This document shows positions 8,899 through 58,818 of a DNA stretch of 64,000 bases, piece by piece; position 1 is the first letter of the stretch, and every line of letters starts with the position of its first letter. A program made the translations under genes and the position numbers. The stretch comes from a virus. Its lineage: Duplodnaviria > Heunggongvirae > Uroviricota > Caudoviricetes. The notes below the pieces were generated by a model. That model was not told the DNA's origin and ran no database searches. It was given only the letters and a program-made list of their open reading frames with translations. Location: IMG/VR virus record IMGVR_UViG_2671181136_000006. One strand, 5' to 3'.

Positions 8899-9489
8899 CT
8901 ATTTATTATAAACAAAACCAATATCTTTCTTGTGAGGCATATCTGCTGCTGAAAAAGCTGCGATCTTCGCGAGTCGATCACATATTTCATTTTCACGATG
9001 CCCGGCGTGACCTTTAACCCACTTCCAGCGAACATTATGTCGACTTGCGGCCTCATCCAGACGCTTCCACAGATCAACATTCTTTACTGGTTTTTTGTCA
9101 GAAGTCATCCATCCATTGCGTTTCCACCATTTCATCCACTGTGTCATGCCGTTTTTCAGATACTGGCTATCAGAGTGCAAAATAACGTTGCATGGATATT
9201 TCAAACGCTCCAGCCCGATAAGTGCCCCCATCATCTCCATGCGGTTATTGGTGGTGCTATGAAAACCATCTGAGAACTCGCGTTCCTCACCACGATACTG
9301 GAGAACGATACCGTAACCGCCCGGGCCACCCGGATTTTTAAGGCAAGAGCCATCACTAAAGATTTTCACGGTTTTAAGCTGGGGATTGAACTCTACGACA
9401 GGCGTTGTGGGATTGGTGCGGGGGGAATTTTTGTTTTTGGCTTTTTTGCGAGTTTTTGCTTGCGATCGGGCTGGTGTCTTCGTCGTCAT
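8899..9489 (-). CDS. rnhA: ribonuclease HI
   Basis: FSDGSC..NPGxGGYG...TNNRMEMMG...DSQY...KGHAGH..NE.CD motifs near-collinear with E. coli RNase HI; start set to ATG 9489 preceded by AGGAG; basic N-terminal extension. Confidence 0.9.
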
Positions 9490-10071
9490 ATAAACTCCTG
9501 AATCAAGCGCCGCGCCGATTTTTCCTCGCGCGTGCGCACACGCGTGCGTGTTAATAATTATTAAAATAAACAAATTACTTCCCAGAACAGGTTTTTATAA
9601 ACCTGAACTGAACGAACGAAGTGAGTGAAGTTCACCTCGAACGAAGTGAGAGGTTGTCTTTTCAGGTAATACTCTCCCAGGGAGGTGAGTATAAAAATCT
9701 CTCACCAACCTGGTCGTTTCATAACCTGAAAAGTTATGGTCTAAGTCTACTGCCAGCTTAGACTTGGGAAGTTATGGATGACAGCACCCCAGAACCGAGA
9801 TCTTCCCACACTTTATGAAGGGGAGTACTGGATTCAACCTCTCGAAACACCCCAGACTCGACAATCATAAAGTGACCCTTGTCTCTGCTCACTTTGGTTC
9901 CCCCTTCCCCGACACCTAAACGGCACCAGTTCTACGCTGGTAGTGAGCTTTTTTAAACCTGACGCCAGTGACGCTTACCCCCACCCATCAGGTCGAGTCT
10001 CCAGTCTACGACTGGAAACTATCAGATCTTAGCACTTACAATTCACTTTATGAATAGTTTGTACTTATCTA

Positions 10072-10326
10072 TCATTGTGATTGATTATTTTCTCTACCAT
10101 GTAGTTGAACATTCAAGGCAAACACCTCATTGATCAACTCACCTAAAAGCTGTTCAACAAGTTCGCGATGCTCGCCAAGATGCAAGCACTTAATTGCCCA
10201 TTCGTACAAGTTGAAAGCCTGCTCACGATCTTTCATCATTTCACGAGCCTGGGCCAGAAAATCGCTCTCTACGAGCGCAACGACATTAGTCGGGTATGAC
10301 ATGTTGGTTTCCTTAAAGTGGTTCAT
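10072..10326 (-). CDS. hypothetical protein
   Basis: 84-aa ORF. Confidence 0.35.
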   Translation of the reverse strand: MNHFKETNMSYPTNVVALVESDFLAQAREMMKDREQAFNLYEWAIKCLHLGEHRELVEQLLGELINEVFALNVQLHGRENNQSQ

Positions 10327-10404
10327 AAAATCGATTTTAAAGCGTCTGGTAAGGGGTTCTAGTGGATTCTGTAGTGATGTTCAGGTCTGGAGTCTCTGAT
10401 ACAA

Positions 10405-10468
10405 AGCTGCCTGCTTCCGTATATTAATAATTAATATGTAGTTATTTATATATACAGAAGCAGGCTAA
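10405..10468. repeat. about 60-bp element: 14-bp inverted arms (CCTGCTTCCGTATA) flanking AT-rich spacer; second copy at 56495-56555
   Basis: direct sequence comparison of the two loci. Confidence 0.7.
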
Positions 10469-10487
10469 TTACAGACGCCAGAACAAA

Positions 10488-26300: not shown

Positions 26301-26315
26301 GAAGCCATGTTCATG

Positions 26316-26416
26316 TATGCTGTCAGCGGTAATTGATAGTCTGTCAGCGGTTCACCGTATGCTGCCAACTGTTTTTGGTATTCTGTCAGCGGCAAATCAA
26401 GTATGCTGTCAGCGGT
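26316..26416 (+). repeat. upstream iteron cluster (about 5 copies of TATGCTGTCAGCGGT and variants)
   Basis: copies at 26316, about 26337, about 26358 (partial), about 26389, 26402. Confidence 0.8.
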
Positions 26417-26436
26417 TGAATGACAAAGGTGTCCAC

Positions 26437-27531
26437 ATGTCCACAAAAAATAAAAAAGGTAAAAATAACAAAGAAGTAGAAGATAATCTCGACAACTTTG
26501 AAGAAGGTTCCCTTGAATTGTACACAGGGGAACTTGTCCCTAATAGCAACAATACAGTCCAACCAATTGCGTTGATGCGGCTGGGATTGTTCGTGCCCAC
26601 GCTCAAGGGGACAAAATACAGCAAGCGTAACAAGCCAAATGAGATCGATGCTTCAAAGGAGCTTGTTCAGCTCGAAGTAGCCCGTTCTGAAGGCTATTCC
26701 GATATCAAGATAACCGGTCCTCGTCTCGACATGGATCATGATTTCAAAACGTGGGTGGGCGTTGTGCGTTCGCTGGCAGAATACGGCGAACCTAACGGTC
26801 GTGTCGAGTTAAGCATCACGAAATTTGCGAAGTTTTGTGGCTATCCATCGTCACAGATCCGCAAAACACTCCGCGACCGGCTTACAAACAGTCTTTTGAA
26901 GATCATGCGTACAACTCTGTCTTTCCAGAGAACGTATGAAGAAAAGAACGTCGACGGCTCTAACAAGATCTCGCTTCTGATGGTGCACCTCATCAATAGC
27001 GTGGACTACAACGAGCAGAAAGATACGGTGGTGTTCTATGCAGAACCGAAGCTGGCCGAACTATATCGCTTTGACCATAAGGTTCTTTTGCAGTTAAAGG
27101 TTATCAATAAGCTACCACGCAAAGAAACAGCACAGGCTCTGTACACCTTCATCGAAAGTCTTCCAACCAAGCCTGCGCCGGTATCGCTTGCTCGATTGCG
27201 TGCGCGACTCAATTTGAGTAGCAGGAATGTCAGCTCGCAGAATCAGACTATACGCAACGGCTTAAAAGCTCTCCAAGATTTGGGCTATCTCGAATACAGC
27301 GAGATTAAGCGTGGGCGGTCGATCTATATCCAGATTCACAGCCGCAATCCAAAACTCAAAGTCGCACCGCCAAAACCTGAAGACATCGAACCCAAAAAAC
27401 TAGATGAGAAAGCTGGGGAAATTGATGCCAAACAGAACATTATCAACAAGATAACCGAACTTTCGCAGAATTTGACGCCTGAAAATATCAAGATGATTGA
27501 GATCCTTTCCAATAGTCTCAAACTGCTTTGA
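26437..27531 (+). CDS. repA: iteron-binding replication initiator (RepA/RepE-like)
   Basis: basic N-terminus, winged-helix-like pattern, flanked on both sides by 15-bp iterons; start set to ATG 26437 because the longer ORF runs through the iterons. Confidence 0.75.
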   Translation: MSTKNKKGKNNKEVEDNLDNFEEGSLELYTGELVPNSNNTVQPIALMRLGLFVPTLKGTKYSKRNKPNEIDASKELVQLEVARSEGYSDIKITGPRLDMDHDFKTWVGVVRSLAEYGEPNGRVELSITKFAKFCGYPSSQIRKTLRDRLTNSLLKIMRTTLSFQRTYEEKNVDGSNKISLLMVHLINSVDYNEQKDTVVFYAEPKLAELYRFDHKVLLQLKVINKLPRKETAQALYTFIESLPTKPAPVSLARLRARLNLSSRNVSSQNQTIRNGLKALQDLGYLEYSEIKRGRSIYIQIHSRNPKLKVAPPKPEDIEPKKLDEKAGEIDAKQNIINKITELSQNLTPENIKMIEILSNSLKLL

Positions 27532-28062
27532 TATGCTGTCAGCGGTGAAATGTATGCTATCAGCGGCTATTTTTCTGAAAAGTATGCTGTGAACGGTTAA
27601 AGATATGCTACCAGCGGTATAGTGAGATGAACGTATGCTGTGAGCGGTAAATCATCTATCACCACTCAATGCTCTGTCATACCTCCCCAGTGGTTACTAA
27701 CCTCGAAGAGTGCATTCCATATAGGTTTGCGCTCACTAACATTCTATTGCTATTGCGCTGATTGCTTGTAGTGAAAGGCATTTATTGCCTGCTACTCCCT
27801 GATAGAACGTATGCTGTCAGCGGTGTGTTATTGAGGAATTTTTGTTTGGATATGCTATCAGCGGTAATTAATGGTATATGTCAGACATTCGTATGCTGCC
27901 AGCGGTAATTTTGTTCTGGTTATACCCATACCGGGACACATTATTCATGCAATTTCTTAAGTATGCTGTCAGCGGTAAAAAATCGAGTAAAGTATGCTGT
28001 GAGCGGTGAGATAGACTCTCGATATGCTATCAGCGGTAGTTGATTGTGTATGCTGTCAGCGG
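27532..28062 (+). repeat. downstream iteron clusters (about 12 copies, two groups)
   Basis: TATGCT(G/A)(T/C)(C/G)A(G/A)CGGT at 27532, 27553, 27583, 27604, 27634, 27810, 27851, 27892, 27962, 27992, 28023, 28048; followed by GACTGCGGAACGTGCCGCAGTC hairpin. Confidence 0.8.
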
Positions 28063-28110
28063 TGACGACTATGAAATATGACTGCGGAACGTGCCGCAGT
28101 CAGTTTGCAT

Positions 28111-44612: not shown

Positions 44613-44657
44613 TTTACAACCCTAACCTTTGATGTAATATCGGTAAGCACTTACCAG
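44613..44657 (+). promoter_or_regulatory. sigma70-like promoter (TTTACA-16-TAATAT) with palindromic operator CGGTAAGCACTTACCAG just downstream
   Basis: -35 at 44613-44618, -10 at 44635-44640, palindrome 44641-44657 belongs to the dispersed GGTAAG..CTTACC family. Confidence 0.55.
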
Positions 44658-44686
44658 TGAGAATTGAACGCGCAAAGGTTGTAACA

Positions 44687-45073
44687 ATGTCTGACAACAA
44701 GATTGAATTTATAGAAAGTCGCTATGCTGCTTTTATCGCAGGGCTGATTGAATCCTCACCTATGAGTCAGGCCCAAATAGCCAGACTTATTGGTTATAAA
44801 AATGCCAACAACCTTTCTTTAATTAAAAGTGGCAAAATTCCTTTGCCTATCGATAAGGTTCGTCCGTTGGCGCTGGCGCTGGGTATTGAGCCAAGTCGTC
44901 TTATGATGATGGTGCTGGAAGAACGCCAACCTGAACTCGCAGCATTTTTATACAAAGAAGGCACCGCTCCTCTTAACGAGGACGAAAAACAGGTTCTTGC
45001 TGCATATAACGAGCGATTCGGTAAAGAGAAAGGCGCATCACAAAAGGTTGTTGAGGCTATAAAGTCTCTATGA
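44687..45073 (+). CDS. HTH DNA-binding protein (XRE-like), candidate repressor
   Basis: SQAQIARLIGYKNANNLSLIKSG helix-turn-helix pattern; start set to MSDNK (ORF track starts 44657). Confidence 0.5.
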   Translation: MSDNKIEFIESRYAAFIAGLIESSPMSQAQIARLIGYKNANNLSLIKSGKIPLPIDKVRPLALALGIEPSRLMMMVLEERQPELAAFLYKEGTAPLNEDEKQVLAAYNERFGKEKGASQKVVEAIKSL

Positions 45074-46171
45074 AAAATTTACACGAATAAGCTCTGTTGA
45101 TAGACGATCTCCCTTGAATTTGTGGTCAATTTCGTCTAAATCCGGTTGCTCTACGATTGATGCGATGTACGTCGAGAAACTTTCTAAGGCGTCTCGCATC
45201 TCGTCCATATAATCGTGCCGGTCGTAGACTCGATCTATCCCCTCAAGACTGTGGTTCATGATTTTGCGTGATACCTCCTGGCTTATGCCTAATGCTGGGA
45301 AGTAACTACGCGCAGTACGGCGCAAGTCTCGGGGTGTAAATGGCTCAAGCTCCATCAGTTCTGGTCGTTCCAGAATACGACGTAATGCCTGGGCTATTGC
45401 CACTTTAGACATAGGAAGGTCTTTCCCGATTTTTTTATTCGAAGGCACGAGCCACTGGCTGCCTTTACCGTATTCGAACAACTCTTCAATACATGTGCGC
45501 ATTAATGTGCTTAAAGGCAGCGAATGCTCACGGGCAGATTTGTTCCTCTTGCCTTGATTCCAAACCCCACGCTTAAGATTGAACTCACTTTTTTTAGCCC
45601 GCAGTACTTCGTCAGGTCGTCTTGCGGATACAAGACACAGCCTGGCCGCCCATTTTGTACCAGCGCACACATTGAAGTAGTCCCATATATTCCAGAACAC
45701 CCATACCTCTGCGTCGGTCAGCTTCCGCTCGCGAGGTGTGGGCTTTGCGCCACCGGCAACTTTGTTTAGTGACATATCGTTTAACGGTGACACGTCTATC
45801 ATCCCCTGGAAGGCGCACCAGCTAAGGAACTGCTTCATCAGAGAGAAAACGCGGCGGCCCATAACAATTTTGCCATCCAGTATTAGTGGGTTGACCAGTT
45901 GGTTCACCATGAACCTATTAATGTCACTTACTTTTACATCGGCAATGTGCGGCAAAACATGTATCAAAATACAATGAACAGCGATCTCTGGCCGACGTCT
46001 GGTTATCAGCAGAGATAAGCGAGTGAATAACATGAATGCGTCCGAGAATCTCATGTCATTGCTGACCTGGGAGATCATAACGGCCTGCATTTGAGATGCT
46101 CTTTCGAGATACTCAATCGCCTCTTTTGAGGTGTTCTCCGCAGCGCGTGCTCTGTCAAAGCTATTTTTCAT
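45068..46171 (-). CDS. tyrosine site-specific recombinase (integrase/resolvase family)
   Basis: C-terminal catalytic pattern R...H..R...Y (RDLRRTARS; HSLEGIDRVYDRHDY). Confidence 0.8.
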   Translation of the reverse strand: MKNSFDRARAAENTSKEAIEYLERASQMQAVMISQVSNDMRFSDAFMLFTRLSLLITRRRPEIAVHCILIHVLPHIADVKVSDINRFMVNQLVNPLILDGKIVMGRRVFSLMKQFLSWCAFQGMIDVSPLNDMSLNKVAGGAKPTPRERKLTDAEVWVFWNIWDYFNVCAGTKWAARLCLVSARRPDEVLRAKKSEFNLKRGVWNQGKRNKSAREHSLPLSTLMRTCIEELFEYGKGSQWLVPSNKKIGKDLPMSKVAIAQALRRILERPELMELEPFTPRDLRRTARSYFPALGISQEVSRKIMNHSLEGIDRVYDRHDYMDEMRDALESFSTYIASIVEQPDLDEIDHKFKGDRLSTELIRVNFS

Positions 46172-46269
46172 ATGACAATCACCGAGTTACGCCGATTCAC
46201 TGTATAAGTAAACAGTATATTAGGCATAGATTCTTATAGGATCAAGAGTAAAAGTAACTCATTTTCACT

Positions 46270-48443: not shown

Positions 48444-48519
48444 TGGTGCCGGTTAACGGACTCGAACCGCTGACATCCTGCTTACAAGGCAGACGCTCTA
48501 CCAACTGAGCTAAACCGGC
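48444..48519 (-). tRNA. tRNA-Thr (anticodon TGT)
   Basis: acceptor GCCGGTT/AACCGGC, D-loop AGCTCAGTTGGTAGAGC, anticodon loop CTTGTAA, T-loop GGTTCGAGTCC, CCA. Confidence 0.85.
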
Positions 48520-48523
48520 AATT

Positions 48524-48610
48524 TGGTGGGGAGTGATGGAGTCGAACCACCCGAGTCGCCATGACAGTAGATTTACAGTCTACCCCGCTGCCCCTACGGA
48601 CTAACTCCCC
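48524..48610 (-). tRNA. tRNA-Tyr (anticodon GTA), long variable arm
   Basis: acceptor GGGGAGT/ACTCCCC, anticodon stem GTAGA/TCTAC loop CTGTAAA, T-loop GGTTCGACTCC, CCA. Confidence 0.8.
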
Positions 48611-48615
48611 TAAAT

Positions 48616-48690
48616 TGGCGATGGTGGGTGGATTCGAACCACCGACCAGTTGGTTAACAGCCAACTGCTCTACCGCTGAGCTACACCATC
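48616..48690 (-). tRNA. tRNA-Asn (anticodon GTT)
   Basis: acceptor GATGGTG/CACCATC, anticodon stem GTTGG/CCAAC loop CTGTTAA, T-loop GGTTCGAATCC, CCA. Confidence 0.85.
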
Positions 48691-52994: not shown

Positions 52995-54176
52995 TTATGA
53001 TAGAGCCTTAATGCCCAAAACCTTGCTTTGCAACTCCAACTGTTTGGTATACGGTTTTGCCCGATAATAGGCTTTGATGATTTGCTCTGGCGTTGCATCG
53101 CCCGGGTCGAGTCCTTCCTCGCCCAAACACGCCACTTTGACATTAAGACCAATACTGGTCAGTCGCCTGGCTGCGGCCATCGTGTTGCGTATAGCTTGCT
53201 TTTCACTATCCCACATCATGATCACATTACGTAATCCACGCGCCTTGAGCGTCAGGAACGCGCCCAACTGATCTTCTGCATCCTGAGTGGTGTTGCCAGA
53301 TAGATGCATCCCGAACGTTCCTATTGGCTCCACGTAATCACGTAATGTTTCTTCGTCGAAAATAGCTCGTTTGACCCCCATAACATCGAACGCACCCTCA
53401 CAGACAACTACAGTCTGTTTGCCGACTGCATTATGGCCGTTGTAGAGAAATTTACCTGAAGCTGGAAGTTGCATAGGAAAGAGGTAGCGGCGTTCTGCTG
53501 TACCGGTAATGTCTCGTCCCTGAAATGTCTTCATTACCCCATCCAGATCGTAAACCGGTATCAGTATTCGCATATCGAATATCTGTCCTTTAACCTGATC
53601 TGTATACGGATCTACATAGGCGTGCTTGCCTTCGACGCAGTATCGTAGGTCAAAATACTTTGCCATTTCAGGCGATATGTTTCGTTCAACCAGATAGTCT
53701 GGAAGACGGCCATCTATAGGAAGCTCGTAATGACGAGGGAGTGCAACTGGCTCCTCTAACTCGACTGTGCTTGCAAGCACTAGCTCTTCTTTCTTTGGTG
53801 CCCACCCCTGGGAAAGAAGGGCGTTCTGCACATATTCCTCGAACTGTCGTCGTGATTTGCCGCTGTAGTGCTTGAGGAAGACCAGCTTATTGAACTGAAT
53901 CTCTTCGGGATGATCACCAGCGAAGCATTTACCGACGCCACTGGTCAGATTGAAATATACCTTCCAGTTGGAGCTGCCACATACCGGACACTCCTTGATA
54001 TTCACTTCACGACCGCGAGTACTCACGCCTCCACGTCGATAAACGATACCTTCAGTATCCAACCATTGTTCAAAATCTAATTCGGTAATTAGCTCTTTCA
54101 GCTCGCTCACGATAATTCCACTTTTAACAGGCAATATTGTGACCAACCTAAATGTTGATATAACATAAAGGCTCAT
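52995..54176 (-). CDS. DNA primase (zinc-ribbon + Toprim)
   Basis: CPVCGSS...C zinc ribbon, Toprim VVVCEGAFDVMG; start set to internal ATG 54176 which has the conserved upstream motif. Confidence 0.65.
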   Translation of the reverse strand: MSLYVISTFRLVTILPVKSGIIVSELKELITELDFEQWLDTEGIVYRRGGVSTRGREVNIKECPVCGSSNWKVYFNLTSGVGKCFAGDHPEEIQFNKLVFLKHYSGKSRRQFEEYVQNALLSQGWAPKKEELVLASTVELEEPVALPRHYELPIDGRLPDYLVERNISPEMAKYFDLRYCVEGKHAYVDPYTDQVKGQIFDMRILIPVYDLDGVMKTFQGRDITGTAERRYLFPMQLPASGKFLYNGHNAVGKQTVVVCEGAFDVMGVKRAIFDEETLRDYVEPIGTFGMHLSGNTTQDAEDQLGAFLTLKARGLRNVIMMWDSEKQAIRNTMAAARRLTSIGLNVKVACLGEEGLDPGDATPEQIIKAYYRAKPYTKQLELQSKVLGIKALS

Positions 54177-54257
54177 GTGTTTTTCTTTTGTGGTTTGGCA
54201 AAAGAAAAGTTGTTTCACCAATGAATCAAGCGTGGAGGTGTTCTCCACGCTTATTTT

Positions 54258-55598
54258 TTAGGTAACGTCTAAGATTCGCTCAATGAAGCGCATTTGTTCG
54301 AGGTTTTGTTTAACGCGAATGCTGATCCCTCCCTGCTGGTTACGTGAACCAGCAAAGTAGAGACGAGCCTCTCCTTTCGCTTCTTCTTCTTCGGTTTTGT
54401 TGATCGTTATTACCAGGTCAGCAATACGTACTTTTTCGATGTTGTCGGCAGCGTGCATCATTGTGGCAACTTCTGACGCGCCACCTTCACGGTTTGTCTG
54501 CGATGCCGTGATCCCAGCAACGTTATGCTTGTCATAAAGAGCACGTAAATCGGTGTAGATACTACGAATGTTGGCGCGATCATCACGAAGGTCATAACTG
54601 GCACGCATCAAATCTGCGTAGTCGACAACAACCATGTCAGGCACCATGCCATTGGCTTTCATACTGTTAAGCATACGGTCCAGATCTGCCGGTGACATAC
54701 TTCCTGACGGACGCTCAACAACCCACAAACTACCAATCCCCTTCGTGGCTCCCAACTCTGCCAACTTACGATGAACCTCATCGCGCCGTTCCACCAGCTT
54801 GGACATTTCTGTCTCCGACAATCTTGCATCAAAACGGTCGGATAAAATGGTGGTGTGAACCTCCAGCGAGAGATACAGAACATTGTAGCCAGCAAGCGTT
54901 GCGTTTATGGAAAACTCACCCATTGCGGTCGATTTACCGGATTTAGCGAACCCCATGAAGAGCACCATTTCGCGCTTTGCCCAGCCTTTTTGGTACAGCA
55001 ACCTATCGAGAAGAGGGAGTCCAGTTGTAATACTGTTTGGTACATACTCCTCTGAAGCCTCATATTCACGCGCTTTCAATCGCTCACTTGCGGAGGTGTA
55101 GTAGTCATAGATTCCGGTCGCTTCGTTCGATCCAATCTGCTGAACCTTGGCCATGATTGCCATCGCCCCCTGAAAGTCGCCTTTCTCTTTCAGTTCAGCA
55201 GCCTTAATCAGAGCATCATCAAACGCTACACTTTTTGCGAAGGTTGATACCTGGTCAACCATGTACGAGGTATCGGACAATTTTTCTGCAAGAATGCGCT
55301 TAAACGCAGCAACAACATCGGCGAATAGTTCCTCACGGATAGTCTTATCGCGTTTCGCACGCTTAAGCATATCCAGAATTGCAGATGAAGAGGGCGCGCT
55401 CTTGTACATACGGTAATAGCCCGAAACCATATTAACCAATATGGCATTGGCCGCATTGGCAAACTGGCTAGGCACAACCAGATCTCCCGCACGAGTAAGA
55501 AACTCGTGATCACGACAAAAATATGCCGTCAGTCTGTTCTGGAAATCTTCATCAAACTCTTCGGACAGCCCGCGTCCTGTATGGCAAAGTTCGGTCAT
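54258..55598 (-). CDS. DnaB-like replicative helicase
   Basis: Walker A GFAKSGKST, Walker B VVVDYADLM, RecA-like core in C-terminal half. Confidence 0.75.
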   Translation of the reverse strand: MTELCHTGRGLSEEFDEDFQNRLTAYFCRDHEFLTRAGDLVVPSQFANAANAILVNMVSGYYRMYKSAPSSSAILDMLKRAKRDKTIREELFADVVAAFKRILAEKLSDTSYMVDQVSTFAKSVAFDDALIKAAELKEKGDFQGAMAIMAKVQQIGSNEATGIYDYYTSASERLKAREYEASEEYVPNSITTGLPLLDRLLYQKGWAKREMVLFMGFAKSGKSTAMGEFSINATLAGYNVLYLSLEVHTTILSDRFDARLSETEMSKLVERRDEVHRKLAELGATKGIGSLWVVERPSGSMSPADLDRMLNSMKANGMVPDMVVVDYADLMRASYDLRDDRANIRSIYTDLRALYDKHNVAGITASQTNREGGASEVATMMHAADNIEKVRIADLVITINKTEEEEAKGEARLYFAGSRNQQGGISIRVKQNLEQMRFIERILDVT

Positions 55599-55641: not shown

Positions 55642-56391
55642 TTAATTAGATAGGGGATCAATAAACCGCCGTGCTTCTTCCAGTTCTTCTGGAAAGTGGG
55701 CGGAAATAAGGCGCTCTGGAACGATTTCCATTAGCCAGATAGCGGAGAAAATTGCGCGTATGCGCTTGCTGCGAGGGATGGTGCGCAAACGCTCCAGAAT
55801 CCACTCAAAATAGCTTTCCTGAATCGGGTTGAACTGCATGTCTCCCATATGCTTAAAGCTAACCAGAGAGTCATCCAGACGGGTTGTTGCGCGTCTGGCT
55901 AATTTCTCTTCAAATATCTCAATCAGTTCTGGCTGCCATAAATGCTGTGGGCGCGGCAGCTTGTCCCACAGCCGTCGTGCAGCTGCGGAAAGAACGGTGG
56001 AGATAAAGTAGTCGTATGAGCAGCAATAGCGGTCAGCAAACTGGCGTGCTTTCCATAGAGACGTTTTATTGGCAGTCGACAACTCCTGATAAGGCAGGCG
56101 TTTTAACCCGGTGGTGAACGGAGCTGTTTCAAAGTGTTCGCGACCGTGCGTCAGCATGATATTTGAGTACTGACGTTTGTATGCCTCCGTAAACAGACAG
56201 GTGGCCATAAGAGGATGCATGTCGCGGTAATCAAACCACTTCGTCTCGAAGAGTTCAGCCTCATCTTTACAGCGCGACAAACCAATGTTTTCAGCGACCC
56301 ACTTGTCCATAACAGCGGTATTCCACTCTGTCATGAAGTCGTACTGGTCGTTGTCGATGGTATCGAAAAAGATTTGGCTCATGTGGCTCAC
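55642..56391 (-). CDS. hypothetical protein
   Basis: 249-aa ORF. Confidence 0.4.
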   Translation of the reverse strand: MSHMSQIFFDTIDNDQYDFMTEWNTAVMDKWVAENIGLSRCKDEAELFETKWFDYRDMHPLMATCLFTEAYKRQYSNIMLTHGREHFETAPFTTGLKRLPYQELSTANKTSLWKARQFADRYCCSYDYFISTVLSAAARRLWDKLPRPQHLWQPELIEIFEEKLARRATTRLDDSLVSFKHMGDMQFNPIQESYFEWILERLRTIPRSKRIRAIFSAIWLMEIVPERLISAHFPEELEEARRFIDPLSN

Positions 56392-56494
56392 CCGGTAGGT
56401 AGTTACTTACTTATCACAATGAGCGGATGATAGCGACTGGTGGCAGTTTTTGGAAGTGAAAACGGAAGGGAGTTGTTCTGGTGGTGTCTTTTAA

Positions 56495-56555
56495 AAGACC
56501 TGCTTCCGTATATATTTAATAAGTTACTTATTATTTATATACAGAAACAGGCTCC
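56495..56555. repeat. second copy of about 60-bp inverted-arm element (see 10405-10468)
   Basis: CCTGCTTCCGTATAT...TATACAGAAACAGG in divergent intergenic region. Confidence 0.7.
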
Positions 56556-56656
56556 TAATGGATACCAAGAACAACATAATTTGACTCCAACCCCAGATGC
56601 TATGTCATTGACAGATTTATCAAGGGAGATCATGTTAGAATCAGTGTTTTAGCCTC

Positions 56657-57730
56657 GTGGATATTGTCACCATGCGCATGAATAGACTTCCAGGATATGG
56701 CCTTCCCGAACTGGCTTTTTGGCCTCAGCCTAAATATGAACGGAATAAATGGTCGATGTTCTGTCTGAAACTCCGTAATGATGGAACCCTTGCTTGGTAT
56801 CGGCGATATGTTGATCGTGGTATGCCAAACCACGCTTTTGATGACGACTACGATAACTATCCTGAAGCAAGAAAAGCGGCATTAGAGCTGAATAAAAACG
56901 TGAGCTTTGACATTGAAAAACTTCCTCTATCTATGTTTCAAAAGAAGTCATTGCGTTTGAAAGTTGACAAAGCACTCAAAGCCAAATCACGTCTCATGGA
57001 TGAAGAGCATATAATGCTCAACGAAGCAATTAAGGCACACGCCAACGATCCGCGAGTGACATTAAATGAGTTAATAATTAACCCAGATTACGAAACTTTG
57101 CGTCAACCCCTTTTTGACGTGCTAAGCGAGATGCCTTACTTACATTTTGTTTTTCTTCCCAAATTCCAAGTTTCACTTCAACTCGTTGCTCCTAACACTT
57201 GGGAATGTTCATATAACAACAAAGCTAAGACAGCGAAGATCTGCTACCAAGAACGCATAGCCAGAGGTTTTGGTTTATCAGGTGCTGCACATTGGGGAAA
57301 AACAAAAGCGACTATTCGCTCAATGCTTCTGCCGCGTGCTAACCGGTTACTGCAACTCGCCAGCGTAAAAAGAATGCTGGATGAAGCTCTCAGGAATGGG
57401 CAAAAGGTACTGGTTGTTGGCAACTTTGTTTTCTGGTTTGAGGACAAAAATCAGGTAGGTTGGAGTGTTAAAGTTGCTAGCGAAAGCGAAACCACCTCAA
57501 GAGGCAATACGCTCTGGAAAGAAGGAACTATCATTTCAAAAAATCACGGTCGAATTGTCGTGCTGCCGTATACAAAAGAAAACGGTAAACATGTAAAAGG
57601 TTATACCAAGAATGCCCCTAACGACGGCAACGCAATTCCGAGACATAAGGATGAGTATGTCGAGTTGCCCTTTGAAATTTTGGATGGTGACTTGATGTTC
57701 AGTCTGTTCGGTGAGCTTAACTACGAATAG
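56657..57730 (+). CDS. hypothetical protein
   Basis: 357-aa ORF. Confidence 0.4.
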   Translation: MDIVTMRMNRLPGYGLPELAFWPQPKYERNKWSMFCLKLRNDGTLAWYRRYVDRGMPNHAFDDDYDNYPEARKAALELNKNVSFDIEKLPLSMFQKKSLRLKVDKALKAKSRLMDEEHIMLNEAIKAHANDPRVTLNELIINPDYETLRQPLFDVLSEMPYLHFVFLPKFQVSLQLVAPNTWECSYNNKAKTAKICYQERIARGFGLSGAAHWGKTKATIRSMLLPRANRLLQLASVKRMLDEALRNGQKVLVVGNFVFWFEDKNQVGWSVKVASESETTSRGNTLWKEGTIISKNHGRIVVLPYTKENGKHVKGYTKNAPNDGNAIPRHKDEYVELPFEILDGDLMFSLFGELNYE

Positions 57731-57790
57731 CTTTCATAGAACGAAATATTTCTAAGGCTGTCCAATGCAGACCAGCCTTAGAGATTTATA

Positions 57791-58150
57791 TCAACCTTTC
57801 TTCATTAACTCGCGTTTAATTTCATCGGTACGCATCGTGACATCGGCAGCGGTGATCGCCTCATTCAATTTCACGATGTCCTCGATTTCCTGCGGTGACT
57901 TCTCTGCCAGATGGAAAATGGCTGCTCGAATCACGTCAGAACGAGTGAACTTCTCGAAGCGAGGGATGAACTTCATCATCTCCAGCAGTTCGAAGTATTC
58001 GTCCTCCAGTGACATTGTGCGGCTTTTAATTTTCTCTTTGCCACGAGTCGGGCGTCCCTGTGGTCTGACTGGTTGGCGCAAAGGAGTTGTGTTCTTAGCC
58101 GGTGCATCAGGCTCTTTGCGCTTTGCTAGGTCACCCATTTTCATGGACAT
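57791..58150 (-). CDS. small basic DNA-binding partition protein (ParG/RHH-like), candidate centromere-binding protein
   Basis: 119 aa, basic disordered N-terminus, directly downstream of and overlapping parA stop. Confidence 0.45.
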   Translation of the reverse strand: MSMKMGDLAKRKEPDAPAKNTTPLRQPVRPQGRPTRGKEKIKSRTMSLEDEYFELLEMMKFIPRFEKFTRSDVIRAAIFHLAEKSPQEIEDIVKLNEAITAADVTMRTDEIKRELMKKG

Positions 58151-58818
58151 TATTCTTCTTCCTCCAGACTCAACAGATAATCTACAAATTCTTCAAACTC
58201 GGCTTCCGCCTTTTTGTCGCGCTCGCTACCGGTCATTTCAAAGATAGAACGACCAGACTCTTCCGCATCATCATAGACGTTGCGGTTATATAGATTGACT
58301 GGCGCAGACTCGATTCCAAACGTCTCAACAATCTCTTTAGCCGCCAGAATGCGAGACACTTGTGATGGCAAAGCCGGGCACTGGTTCATGACCGCGCGGA
58401 CCTTCACTTTATCGTTTACATTGCGAACATTGTCGATAATAGGATCGATGTCACGTAAAGATTTCAAATCACGACGCTTAGGACGCAGCGGGATAATGAT
58501 AACGTCAGCCATCAGCATCGCTTGTCGCTGAATTTCGGAGTCGAAGCCACCAGCATCTACCACTACAAACTCAGCTCTACCCTGAAGCGATTTTAGGTGC
58601 TTAATGATGTCATCCTGAACGTATGCAAAAGGAATCAGCTCAAGGTCTTCGTTCTGTCGACGGTCTTCACACCAGCTCGTTGTCGTGCGCTGAATATCTA
58701 TATCGGTAATATAAACCTTCTTCTTCTTTTTGACTTTCAGGCAAACGGCAATTTGCTGGGCAACGGTGGATTTGCCAGGCCCGCCCTTTGTGCCGCCAAC
58801 CACAAAGATCTTGGTCAT
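58150..58818 (-). CDS. parA: ParA/Soj-family partition ATPase (small type Ib)
   Basis: deviant Walker A GGTKGGPGKST, 222 aa. Confidence 0.85.
   Translation of the reverse strand: MTKIFVVGGTKGGPGKSTVAQQIAVCLKVKKKKKVYITDIDIQRTTTSWCEDRRQNEDLELIPFAYVQDDIIKHLKSLQGRAEFVVVDAGGFDSEIQRQAMLMADVIIIPLRPKRRDLKSLRDIDPIIDNVRNVNDKVKVRAVMNQCPALPSQVSRILAAKEIVETFGIESAPVNLYNRNVYDDAEESGRSIFEMTGSERDKKAEAEFEEFVDYLLSLEEEE

What the first reader, a model, noticed from the sequence alone, without database searches (positions are those of the whole stretch)
10405..10468. About 60-bp element with 14-bp inverted arms and AT-rich spacer, present twice 46 kb apart
CCTGCTTCCGTATAT-(AT-rich about 30 bp)-TATACAGAAGCAGG at 10405-10468 is mirrored by a near-identical element at 56495-56555. 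Both are intergenic. The arms are too far apart and the loop too AT-rich for a canonical terminator. The architecture resembles DNA-unwinding or protein-binding elements such as a secondary (lytic) origin, packaging site or IHF-type architectural site.
Basis: seen in the sequence. Interest (0 to 1): 0.5.

Follow-up and report, generated by a model that had tools for sequence, protein, structure and literature searches.

The report
Conserved nested palindrome of SSU5-type phage-plasmids
The two look-alike inverted repeats are real copies of an undescribed, strongly conserved DNA site about 100 bp long that SSU5-type phage-plasmids carry three times, each ahead of a block of lytic genes; it looks like a protein docking site, but its exact job cannot be settled from sequence.

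Summary
The cores lie at 10410-10464 (E1) and 56499-56551 (E2). Each has 15-nt inverted arms, CCTGCTTCYGTATAT, around a 25- or 23-nt spacer that is about 92% A+T.

The window is an SSU5-like phage-plasmid of E. coli. Complete relatives carry a third copy (E3) about 117 bp upstream of the small-terminase gene, outside this window.

All 96 two-armed copies found in viral contigs sit in one of three syntenic places. Each is 109-121 bp upstream of the first gene of a block:
- E1: a small ORF followed by RNase H.
- E2: a 249-aa gene, then helicase and primase.
- E3: terS and the structural genes.

The arms stay almost invariant where flanks are only 75-87% identical. They are identical in a relative whose neighbouring protein is 64% identical.

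The core lies inside a nested palindrome of about 100 bp with outer GTCTGGG/CCCAGAC boxes.

It is not an intrinsic terminator, sigma-70 promoter, LexA box, IHF site, Rfam RNA or host-wide repeat.

My best reading, at about 0.35, is a shared sequence-specific protein-binding control site for the three lytic blocks. A lytic origin or a packaging-initiation site remain live rivals. No paper in the searchable library contains the arm sequence.

The parts
10410..10464 (.). E1 core: 15-nt arm (10410-10424), 25-nt spacer at 92% A+T (10425-10449), 15-nt inverted arm (10450-10464)
   Evidence: As single-stranded DNA it folds at -15.8 kcal/mol, z = -6.6.
10385..10392 (-). E1 outer box on the gene-downstream side: GTCTGGAG, which is CTCCAGAC on the gene-sense (minus) strand, 17 nt from the arm
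   Evidence: Five of the 10 CCCAGAC heptamers in the 108-kb relative lie within 200 bp of an element.
10472..10484 (+). E1 outer boxes on the gene-upstream side: CAGACGC and CCAGAAC, in inverted orientation to the box at 10385-10392. They pair with it in the extended fold.
10334..10349 (-). E1 distal box plus a putative -10 hexamer. The gene-sense strand reads CCAGACGC-TT-TAAAAT, 61-76 nt past the arm.
   Evidence: only two such motifs in the 108-kb genome, one after E1 and one after E2; TAGAAC-16-TAAAAT scores at the 99.83rd percentile. Inferred promoter, not shown.
56499..56551 (.). E2 core: arm (56499-56513), 23-nt spacer at 91% A+T with a central AATAAGTTACTTATT palindrome (56514-56536), arm (56537-56551)
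   Evidence: Fold energy -14.1 kcal/mol, z = -6.7.
56472..56484 (-). E2 outer box on the gene-downstream side: the gene-sense strand reads CCACCAGAACAAC
56564..56575 (+). E2 outer box on the opposite side (ACCAAGAACAAC), inverted partner of 56472-56484
56427..56455 (-). Putative promoter of the 249-aa gene, helicase and primase block. The gene-sense strand reads TTCCAA-17-TATCAT, with the box CCAGTCGC abutting the -10 hexamer.
   Evidence: (block invariant across relatives). Inferred.
10072..10326 (-). First gene downstream of E1: an 84-aa ORF (phrog_5343, function unknown). RNase H (8899-9573) follows further on.
55642..56391 (-). First gene downstream of E2: a 249-aa all-alpha protein (phrog_2500). 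DnaB-like helicase (54258-55598) and primase (52995-54248) follow.

Best explanation
The two elements are copies of one cis-acting DNA site that belongs to SSU5-type phage-plasmids and occurs three times per genome.

Shown:
- Each copy has two inverted half-sites, (AGAM)CCTGCTTCYGTATAT, held 38-42 bp centre to centre by an AT-rich spacer of nearly fixed length.
- Each copy is nested inside outer inverted GTCTGGG/CCCAGAC boxes, giving a module of about 100 bp.
- Each module sits at the head of a gene block: the small ORF and RNase H, the helicase and primase genes, and terS with the structural genes.

Inferred:
- The arms are recognised base-specifically by a protein that is still unidentified. 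It would bind as an oligomer on one face of the helix across a bendable or meltable AT-rich centre.
- Through the three modules this factor co-ordinates the expression of the three lytic blocks. It would act as an upstream operator or activator site lying roughly 70-130 bp upstream of putative proximal promoters.

I put about 0.85 on 'sequence-specific protein-binding cis element of the phage-plasmid'. I put about 0.35 on 'its job is transcriptional co-ordination'.
For: - Three copies exist in the complete relative Cyrano, each 109-117 bp upstream of a start codon in the gene direction.
- All 96 two-armed copies in IMG/VR fall into those three syntenic contexts, including genomes whose flanks are 75-87% identical.
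- The arms are nearly invariant in 35 distinct elements. Apart from position 9 (C or T in either arm), each arm position varies on one side only.
- In a relative whose adjacent protein is 64% identical, the 14 outer nt of each arm are unchanged while the spacer sequence is replaced. Total length stays at 52-57 nt throughout.
- In the same genomes, a genuine RNA hairpin in front of terS does drift by compensatory changes. The arms do not.
- The outer boxes are real: 5 of the 10 CCCAGAC in 108 kb lie within 200 bp of an element and are placed symmetrically.
- E1 and E2 share a further CCAGWCGC box followed by a -10-like hexamer at +63 and +66. These are the only two such motifs in the genome. 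They coincide with the best sense-strand sigma-70 candidates.
- The left flank of E2 is replaced by at least 8 unrelated sequences in relatives, yet the module always stays attached to the downstream operon.
- The element is restricted to the plasmid: 394 places in 255 of 5426 complete E. coli genomes, none on a chromosome.
- A box, a 13-nt gap, an arm and an AT-rich stretch recur with different sequences at two syntenic places in an Acinetobacter relative.
Against: - No binding protein is identified. The winged-helix gene next to E3 keeps the same recognition helix in lineages with different palindromes.
- The genome already has two much commoner intergenic palindrome families that look like ordinary operator or promoter motifs. 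The element is not tied to either, which weakens a purely transcriptional role.
- The core contains no convincing promoter.
- A site 70-130 bp upstream is far for a sigma-70 regulator, and no sigma-54 promoter is evident by eye.
- E3 and E2 occupy the classical positions of a pac/cos site and a replication origin respectively.
- In one distant Klebsiella lineage the two syntenic palindromes differ from each other. A single shared factor is therefore not universal.
- Position 9 shows T-G far more often than C-A on the sense strand (18 against 5). That pattern would also fit a sense-strand hairpin.
Confidence: 0.35

Rival explanations
1. Lytic replication origin(s). The AT-rich centre would be a DNA-unwinding element, flanked by binding sites for a phage initiator or helicase loader (the arms and the CCCAGAC boxes). 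Using it at three places would parallel the multiple origins of T4 or oriL/oriR of SPP1 (comparison from my own knowledge).
For: - The spacer is 91-92% A+T between GC-richer conserved arms, in a genome of 46% GC.
- Iteron-like CCAGAC boxes lie on both sides and repeat downstream.
- E2 lies directly upstream of the 249-aa gene, DnaB-like helicase and primase operon, and does so even in distant relatives.
- The genome encodes T4-like recombination and replication proteins: UvsW, UvsY, gp32-like SSB, SbcCD-like and RNase H.
- The plasmid (lysogenic) origin with its iterons is elsewhere, at 26.3-28.1 kb, so a separate lytic origin is needed.
Against: - No DnaA boxes.
- Cumulative GC skew is featureless.
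- There is no evident reason for an origin in front of terS and another in front of the E1 block.
Confidence: 0.2
2. Packaging-initiation (pac-type) site. Terminase would bind the symmetric arms and boxes and cut in the AT-rich centre. With headful packaging, several initiation sites per genome would be tolerated.
For: - E3 lies about 117 bp upstream of terS, the classical place for pac/cos.
- The virion-derived SSU5 record is opened inside the E3 spacer, at ...GACTTATTA|AATATATACGG..., 8 nt from the dyad centre. This is not inherited from pHCM2 numbering.
- TerL is of the Terminase_6N/Terminase_3 type, which from my own knowledge is typical of headful packagers.
- Symmetric binding sites flanking a cleavage region resemble the P1 and SPP1 pac sites (my own knowledge).
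Against: - E1 and E2 are far from the packaging genes.
- I know of no phage with three pac sites.
- The core occupies about 28% of the terS upstream intergenic region, so an arbitrary opening there would often hit it. A palindrome is also a likely assembly break.
- Other phage records of the family start elsewhere.
Confidence: 0.15
3. RNA-level hairpin. Transcribed at the 3' end of the upstream genes, the long stem would act as an mRNA processing site, a 3' stabiliser, or a factor-dependent terminator or insulator between operons.
For: - For E1 and E3 the module starts a few nt after the stop codon of the co-directional upstream gene: about 2 nt for E3, and within 10 nt for E1.
- The fold is very stable, with z between -4.5 and -6.7.
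- At arm position 9, T-G (18) is much commoner than C-A (5) on the sense strand. Both C-G and T-A also occur, and there is one double change at position 8.
- Distant lineages have different palindromes at the same places.
Against: - There is no U-tract and the loop is too long for an intrinsic terminator.
- No Rfam family matches.
- The arms are frozen in sequence instead of drifting by compensation, unlike the neighbouring terS leader hairpin.
- Mismatches such as C-A, T-C and G-A are tolerated.
- In this window E2 lies between divergent genes, so it need not be transcribed from upstream.
- Extra direct copies of the box downstream cannot pair.
Confidence: 0.1
4. Dispersed plasmid centromere sites for the ParA and small-partner partition system, as in the linear phage-plasmid N15. 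There, several SopB-binding inverted repeats are scattered near lytic genes (my own knowledge).
For: - There are three copies, 30-47 kb apart, on a low-copy plasmid prophage. Cyrano has about 5.5 copies per cell (PMC9928086).
- E2 lies about 1.2 kb from parA (58150-58818) and its 119-aa partner (57791-58150).
- No obvious tandem-repeat centromere was seen next to parA.
Against: - The positions are conserved relative to downstream operons, which a centromere does not require.
- In the Acinetobacter relative the par genes are more than 10 kb from the analogous modules.
- The parA upstream region carries a different palindrome, AAACAAGTTGTTT.
- Nothing ties the arms to the partner protein.
Confidence: 0.07
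5. A chance repeat, or a mobile or host-wide palindromic repeat of the MITE, REP or ERIC type.
For: The module is short, palindromic, intergenic and multi-copy.
Against: - There are 0 chromosomal copies in 5426 complete E. coli genomes.
- The positions are fixed and syntenic in all 96 copies and across genera.
- The arm count exceeds every shuffle.
Confidence: 0.01

Closest known systems
Dispersed operator networks of plasmid prophages and plasmids (P1 C1 operators; KorB operators of IncP plasmids). Comparison from my own knowledge.
   Same: A few to a dozen copies of one conserved site are scattered over a plasmid-borne genome. Each lies ahead of a separate operon, so one factor co-ordinates distant blocks. 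Some KorB sites act from 80-190 bp upstream.
   Different: P1 operators are 17-bp asymmetric sites that overlap promoters. KorB sites are 13-bp palindromes. Here two 15-19-bp half-sites sit about 40 bp apart around an AT-rich core, inside outer boxes. There are only three copies, and no cognate protein is known.
N15 dispersed sopC-like centromere repeats (my own knowledge)
   Same: A handful of inverted repeats are scattered through a phage-plasmid near lytic genes.
   Different: The N15 sites are short SopB boxes homologous to F sopC. Here there is no similarity to any known centromere, the ParA partner is a small protein with no Pfam match, and position relative to the downstream operons is conserved.
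pac sites of P1 and SPP1 (my own knowledge)
   Same: Symmetric protein-binding repeats flank a central region next to the terminase genes. The SSU5 record is opened in the centre of E3.
   Different: Those phages have one pac site. Here two further copies lie 31 and 78 kb away, and no cleavage data exist.
Phage origins with an AT-rich unwinding region next to initiator sites (lambda ori, SPP1 oriL/oriR, T4 oriF/oriG; my own knowledge)
   Same: An AT-rich core lies between or beside repeated protein-binding sites. One copy sits next to the helicase and primase genes. SPP1 and T4 have more than one origin.
   Different: There is no tandem iteron array, no DnaA box, no identified initiator and no promoter feeding the AT-rich core.
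LexA (SOS) box
   Same: Each arm of the CTGT variant ends in CTGTATAT, which is the SOS-box half-site. Joining two such arms would give a perfect CTGTATATATATACAG.
   Different: The halves are split by 23-27 nt. Of 70 arms, 41 read CCGT, which from my own knowledge destroys the essential CTG. Canonical boxes with normal spacing occur elsewhere in the same genome.

Membership tests
Rho-independent terminator | GC-rich stem, loop of 3-8 nt, followed by a U/T run | tested here: not met
   No terminator-like site is called at either element. The loop is 23-25 nt, the stem top is A+T-only, and no T-run follows on either strand.
Sigma-70 promoter inside the element | -35 and -10 hexamers with a 16-18 nt spacer, oriented towards the downstream gene | tested here: not met
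   The best sense-strand candidate overlapping a core that was scored (E3 in Cyrano) reaches 3.7-3.9 bits, the 98.6th percentile of the genome. Better candidates lie 65-75 bp downstream of E1 and E2.
LexA/SOS box | CTGT-N8-ACAG 16-bp palindrome | tested here: not met
   The half-sites are 23-27 nt apart and 41 of 70 arms carry CCGT. Canonical boxes are found at window 46198 and Cyrano 89275.
IHF architectural site | WATCAANNNNTTR consensus | tested here: not met
   No match in either module, even at one mismatch.
Iteron/DnaA-type replication origin | Tandem direct repeats for a Rep protein, DnaA boxes and an adjacent AT-rich region | tested here: not met
   The true iteron origin is at 26311-28067, with 13 or more copies of GTATGCTGTCAGCGGT. 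The element has inverted arms and no exact DnaA box; the only 1-mismatch hit is the A+T-rich TTATATACA at the E2 spacer/arm junction.
Replication origin in general (unwinding element plus initiator sites) | Replication initiates there; an initiator binds the flanking sites | not testable with these tools
   Only the architecture is compatible. GC skew is uninformative.
pac/cos packaging site | Lies next to the terminase genes | tested here: inconclusive
   This is true of E3 only. E1 and E2 are 78 and 31 kb away in Cyrano.
pac/cos packaging site | Virion DNA ends map to it | tested here: inconclusive
   The SSU5 record is opened inside E3. No read-level data are available, and other records start elsewhere.
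Plasmid centromere (parS/parC) | Bound by the partition adaptor protein and stabilises a plasmid in cis | not testable with these tools
   The dispersed copy number is compatible. Adjacency to par genes is not conserved in the Acinetobacter relative.
Host-wide or mobile palindromic repeat (REP/ERIC/MITE) | Many copies on the chromosome and presence/absence polymorphism of sites | tested here: not met
   All 394 places are on plasmids, with 0 on chromosomes in 5426 E. coli genomes. The contexts are fixed and syntenic.
Known structured RNA (Rfam) | Match to a curated covariance model | tested here: not met
   Only three tRNAs reach the gathering score in the whole window.

The most novel reading that the evidence does not exclude
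The three modules are the phage's DNA-transaction entry points rather than transcription sites. In this reading they are cruciform-prone or easily melted palindromes at which a phage-encoded protein opens, nicks or cuts the circular plasmid after induction. That would start lytic (recombination-dependent or rolling-circle-like) replication and headful packaging from the same multi-copy element. The break of the SSU5 virion record inside E3 would then mark a real end.
Probability: 0.2. Interest if true: 0.7.

Novelty: new variant of a known kind. Interest (0 to 1): 0.45.

Why it matters
SSU5-type phage-plasmids are common in Escherichia, Klebsiella, Salmonella, Enterobacter and Yersinia. They were present in 255 of 5426 complete E. 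coli genomes here, and some carry resistance genes (PMC9600943).

I found almost nothing published on how they switch from plasmid maintenance to lytic growth. A site this strongly conserved and family-specific, present once in front of each of the replication block, the packaging/structural block and a third block, is a concrete experimental handle on that switch.

If it proves to be an operator, it defines a regulon and points to a regulator. If it proves to be an origin or a pac site, it defines how these elements amplify and mobilise DNA, which bears on transduction. The arm sequence is also a compact diagnostic signature for the enterobacterial branch of the family.

Tried and rejected
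- Intrinsic terminator: rejected. No call at either element and no T-run.
- Promoter inside the core, including a T4-late-type TATAAATA: weak. TATAAATA is in the sense orientation in 26 of 36 distinct elements against 6 antisense, but it is absent in some lineages and no gp55-like factor is annotated.
- LexA box: rejected.
- IHF site and DnaA box: absent; no GATC either.
- Rfam: nothing.
- MITE or REP: rejected.
- GC-skew origin signal: none. The skew follows the single coding strand.
- Linking the winged-helix gene upstream of E3 to the arms by co-variation: failed. Its recognition helix is invariant.
- Finding the Raoultella-type variant in the plasmid collection: no useful hit.
- Literature: no paper in the searchable library contains the arm sequence, and none discusses SSU5 termini or packaging. 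The SSU5 genome note is not held.
- The Acinetobacter analogue is weak. Only the box and one arm recur at the second site.

Full report
**What is in the window**

Reading the sequence confirms both elements.
- E1 is CCTGCTTCCGTATAT, a 25-nt spacer, then ATATACAGAAGCAGG, at 10410-10464.
- E2 is CCTGCTTCCGTATAT, a 23-nt spacer, then ATATACAGAAACAGG, at 56499-56551.

The spacers are 92% and 91% A+T in a window of 46% G+C. The 15-mer arm with up to 3 mismatches occurs 6 times against 1.48 expected, and none of 100 shuffles reached 6. The four hits with 2 or fewer mismatches are exactly the four arms.

Both elements are intergenic.
- E1 lies 24 nt downstream of the stop of an N6-adenine methyltransferase gene and 84 nt upstream of an 84-aa ORF, both on the minus strand.
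- E2 lies between the start of a 249-aa ORF on the minus strand, which is followed by DnaB-like helicase and primase, and a 357-aa ORF on the plus strand.

**What the replicon is**

The window is an SSU5-like phage-plasmid of E. coli.
- It is 99.8% identical to 'Escherichia phage CMS-2020a' and to many E. coli plasmids of about 110 kb.
- It is 97.8% identical to phage Cyrano (pLF82).
- It is 75-77% identical to Salmonella phage SSU5 and to Klebsiella relatives.

Cyrano is a plasmid prophage of about 5.5 copies per cell that is induced by ciprofloxacin (PMC9928086). Nearly all genes run on one strand, which is the minus strand of this window.

**A third copy, and fixed positions**

The complete Cyrano genome has exactly three copies with 2 or fewer arm mismatches. 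The third, E3, spans the ends of the record, about 117 bp upstream of the small-terminase gene. It is therefore outside this window.

In the gene direction, the three copies end 109-117 bp before the start codons of CYRAN_80 (E1), CYRAN_31 (E2) and terS (E3).

A scan of IMG/VR with one arm returned 96 two-armed elements. Every one lies in one of these three syntenic contexts, including genomes whose flanks are only 75-87% identical to Cyrano.

A scan of species-representative genomes found the element only in Kluyvera, Buttiauxella, Yersinia pestis (pMT1) and one MAG. All were again in the E2 or E3 context.

In 5426 complete E. coli genomes the element occurs in 255, at 394 places and 1-3 per genome. 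All are on plasmids and none on a chromosome. This rules out chance and rules out a host-wide or mobile repeat.

**Anatomy**

*Arms.* Among 35 distinct elements the arm consensus is CCTGC(T>G,A)TC(C/T)GTATAT. Total length is 52-57 nt. A conserved AGA(A/C) usually precedes each arm.

*Spacer.* In E2 and E3 the spacer usually has a central AATAAGTnACTTATT palindrome. E1 of the E. coli type lacks it.

*Outer boxes.* The core is embedded in a larger dyad. A GTCTGGG-type box lies 13-14 nt left of the left arm, and CCCAGAC or CCAGAAC lies 14-19 nt right of the right arm. Five of the ten CCCAGAC heptamers in the 108-kb genome lie within 200 bp of an element, in mirror orientation. The extended 116-121-nt stretches fold as nested hairpins with z between -4.5 and -6.4.

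*Downstream of E1 and E2.* A further CCAG(A/T)CGC box directly precedes a -10-like hexamer, at +63 and +66 from the arm. These are the only two such motifs in the genome. They coincide with the best sense-strand sigma-70 candidates, TAGAAC-16-TAAAAT and TTCCAA-17-TATCAT, both at the 99.83rd percentile.

*Downstream of E3.* Here there are instead two AAACAAGTTG palindromes and a GC hairpin with a T-run just before the terS ribosome-binding site. That hairpin shows compensatory substitutions among relatives.

**Sequence constraint or structure constraint?**

Several facts point to base-specific recognition of duplex DNA with a spacing requirement of about four helical turns.
- The arms barely change, while neighbouring intergenic DNA and even the coding genes diverge.
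- In a relative whose CYRAN_31 homologue is 64% identical, the 14 outer nt of each arm are unchanged although the spacer is replaced.
- Apart from position 9, variation hits one arm at a time.
- Mismatches such as C-A, T-C and G-A are tolerated.
- The terS leader hairpin in the same genomes drifts by compensation. The arms do not.

The picture is not entirely one-sided.
- At position 9 all four combinations occur: C-G 9, T-A 4, T-G 18 and C-A 5 on the sense strand.
- One double change occurs at position 8.
- A Raoultella lineage has changed GT to CA in both arms of E2.

The sampled elements were also collected by requiring one exact arm, which inflates the apparent conservation of that arm.

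**What it is not**

- No terminator-like site is called at either element, and no T-run follows the stem.
- No convincing sense-strand promoter lies inside the core.
- No Rfam family matches.
- There is no IHF consensus even at one mismatch, no exact DnaA box, and no GATC.
- The arms end in the SOS half-site CTGTATAT, but the halves are 23-27 nt apart and 41 of 70 arms read CCGT. Canonical LexA boxes with normal spacing sit elsewhere, before the integrase gene at window 46198 and before a UmuD-like gene in Cyrano.
- The plasmid origin, with 13 or more iterons around repA, is at 26.3-28.1 kb.

**Context that bears on function**

The genome has two much commoner intergenic palindrome families.
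- AGAAAACAAnTTGTTT occurs at 9 sites in the window, 15-40 nt before start codons, including parA.
- TA(A/G)GTA-N-TAC(C/T)TA also occurs at 9 sites. The related GGTAAGCACTTACC lies in front of the putative repressor gene.

These look like the ordinary operator or promoter motifs. The three-copy element is a different and rarer thing, and it is not tied to either class.

The left flank of E2 is a plasticity zone. At least 8 unrelated sequences occur there in relatives, and homology resumes about 25 nt left of the arm. The module therefore travels with the downstream replication operon.

*Distant relatives.* An Acinetobacter AB_1 plasmid has ACTTGGG, a 13-nt gap, then ATCAYTATATTAAT followed by an AT-rich stretch. 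This occurs both before its helicase operon and before its terS region. A Morganella plasmid has an AGATCCTTAA inverted repeat around a 24-nt AT-rich spacer. One Klebsiella lineage has two different palindromes at the two places. The recurring theme is a palindrome with a spacer of about 25 nt at these operon heads, with a lineage-specific sequence.

**Attempts to find the partner**

- The proteins next to the elements have no Pfam family. PHROGs gives no function for five of them and only a generic 'DNA binding domain' label for TerS.
- The 88-aa winged-helix protein encoded just upstream of E3 keeps an invariant recognition helix even where the palindromes differ, so it does not track the arms.
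- TerL is of the T4/Terminase_6N type.

**The packaging clue**

The SSU5 GenBank record, made from virion DNA, ends ...CCTGCTTCCGTATATATAAATACTAAGTGACTTATTA and begins AATATATACGGAAGCAGG.... It is therefore opened inside E3, 8 nt from the dyad centre.

This is not inherited from pHCM2 numbering, and Cyrano simply copies it. It may mark a real end or pac cut. However, the core fills about 28% of that intergenic region, and a palindrome is a likely assembly break. Other records of the family start elsewhere. I treat it as weak support for packaging.

**Verdict**

With high confidence (about 0.85), this is a conserved, family-specific cis-acting DNA site recognised by a protein. It occurs three times per genome at the heads of three lytic gene blocks.

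The specific role is open. My estimates are:
- a shared transcriptional control site for the three blocks, about 0.35;
- a lytic origin or unwinding element, about 0.2;
- a packaging-initiation site, about 0.15;
- an RNA-level hairpin, about 0.1;
- a dispersed centromere, about 0.07.

No paper in the searchable library contains the arm sequence or discusses SSU5 regulation, origins or termini. The element therefore appears undescribed, within the limits of that library.

Noticed in passing
window 26311-26420 and 27527-28067: Two clusters of at least 13 iterons (GTATGCTGTCAGCGGT) flank the stretch that corresponds to the repA gene of relatives. This is the plasmid (lysogenic) replication origin and is unrelated to the finding.
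   Followed up: no
window 58854, 55618, 44144, 31730, 18209, 7989, 7260, 6546, 3638 (13-nt cores, gene-sense = minus strand): The palindrome AGAAAACAAnTTGTTT recurs 15-40 nt upstream of start codons of nine genes, including parA. Two copies lie between E3 and terS in relatives. It is probably a binding site or promoter element of a global regulator.
   Followed up: partly
window 56396, 52962, 49440, 32877, 25330, 20650, 11094, 8881, 4830; and 44642-44655: A second palindrome family, TA(A/G)GTA-N0-8-TAC(C/T)TA, sits just upstream of the ribosome-binding sites of many lytic genes. The related GGTAAGCACTTACC lies in front of the putative repressor gene (44657-45073, plus strand). These are likely the lysogeny repressor's operators.
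   Followed up: partly
window 46198-46217; L003 about 15276 (Cyrano 89275): Canonical LexA boxes occur here: CACTGTATAAGTAAACAGTA about 25 nt upstream of the integrase gene (45068-46171, minus strand), and TACTGTATGTGTATACAGTA before a UmuD-like S24 peptidase gene. They are possible links to the reported ciprofloxacin induction.
   Followed up: partly
L001 about 85-115 (Cyrano, outside the window): A GC-rich hairpin with a T-run (GAGCGCATGGACGCGCTC TGTGTGTTTT) sits immediately before the terS ribosome-binding site. It is conserved with compensatory changes (GAGCAC/GTGCTC) in relatives. It looks like a leader terminator, which hints at antitermination control of the late operon.
   Followed up: partly
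window 56552-57790: This is a plasticity slot between the par genes and E2. Here it holds a 357-aa ORF (phrog_22329) on the plus strand. Relatives carry at least 8 unrelated sequences in its place, and Cyrano has a different gene (CYRAN_30).
   Followed up: partly
L126 1-20 and L127 1460-1500 (SSU5 JQ965645 record ends): The virion-derived SSU5 record is opened inside the third copy of the element, 8 nt from its dyad centre. The Cyrano record copies this start.
   Followed up: partly
window 55642-56391 (minus strand): The 249-aa protein encoded upstream of the helicase is conserved across the SSU5 supergroup (26-33% identity over part of its length in Aeromonas and Acinetobacter plasmids). Its AlphaFold model is confident but has no significant structural neighbour, so it may be a new fold or an unrecognised helicase-loading factor.
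   Followed up: partly
window 9573-10072: This is a gene-poor stretch of about 500 bp downstream of the E1-associated ORF. The 44-aa ORF annotated there in Cyrano (CYRAN_81) is reported as expressed 12-fold above background in lysogens (PMC9928086). It could be a small RNA or a moron.
   Followed up: no
window 48447-48690 (minus strand): Three tRNA genes form a cluster. They are annotated as Asn, Thr and Ser in Cyrano.
   Followed up: no
window 18173, 25212, 29145, 40500, 41916, 51635, 54172 and others: A near-identical translation-initiation context recurs at many genes. The gene-sense strand reads AAAGGAAAAACACATG (repeat families D4, D7, D13, D14 and D17).
   Followed up: no
L131 35346-35440 and L132/L130 (NZ_CP149832 69640-69765): An Acinetobacter AB_1 phage-plasmid has an analogous module with different sequences: inverted ACTTGGG boxes, a 13-nt gap, an ATCAYTATATTAAT arm and an AT-rich centre. 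It occurs before its helicase operon and before its terS region. Its helicase operon also encodes an Hfq homologue.
   Followed up: partly
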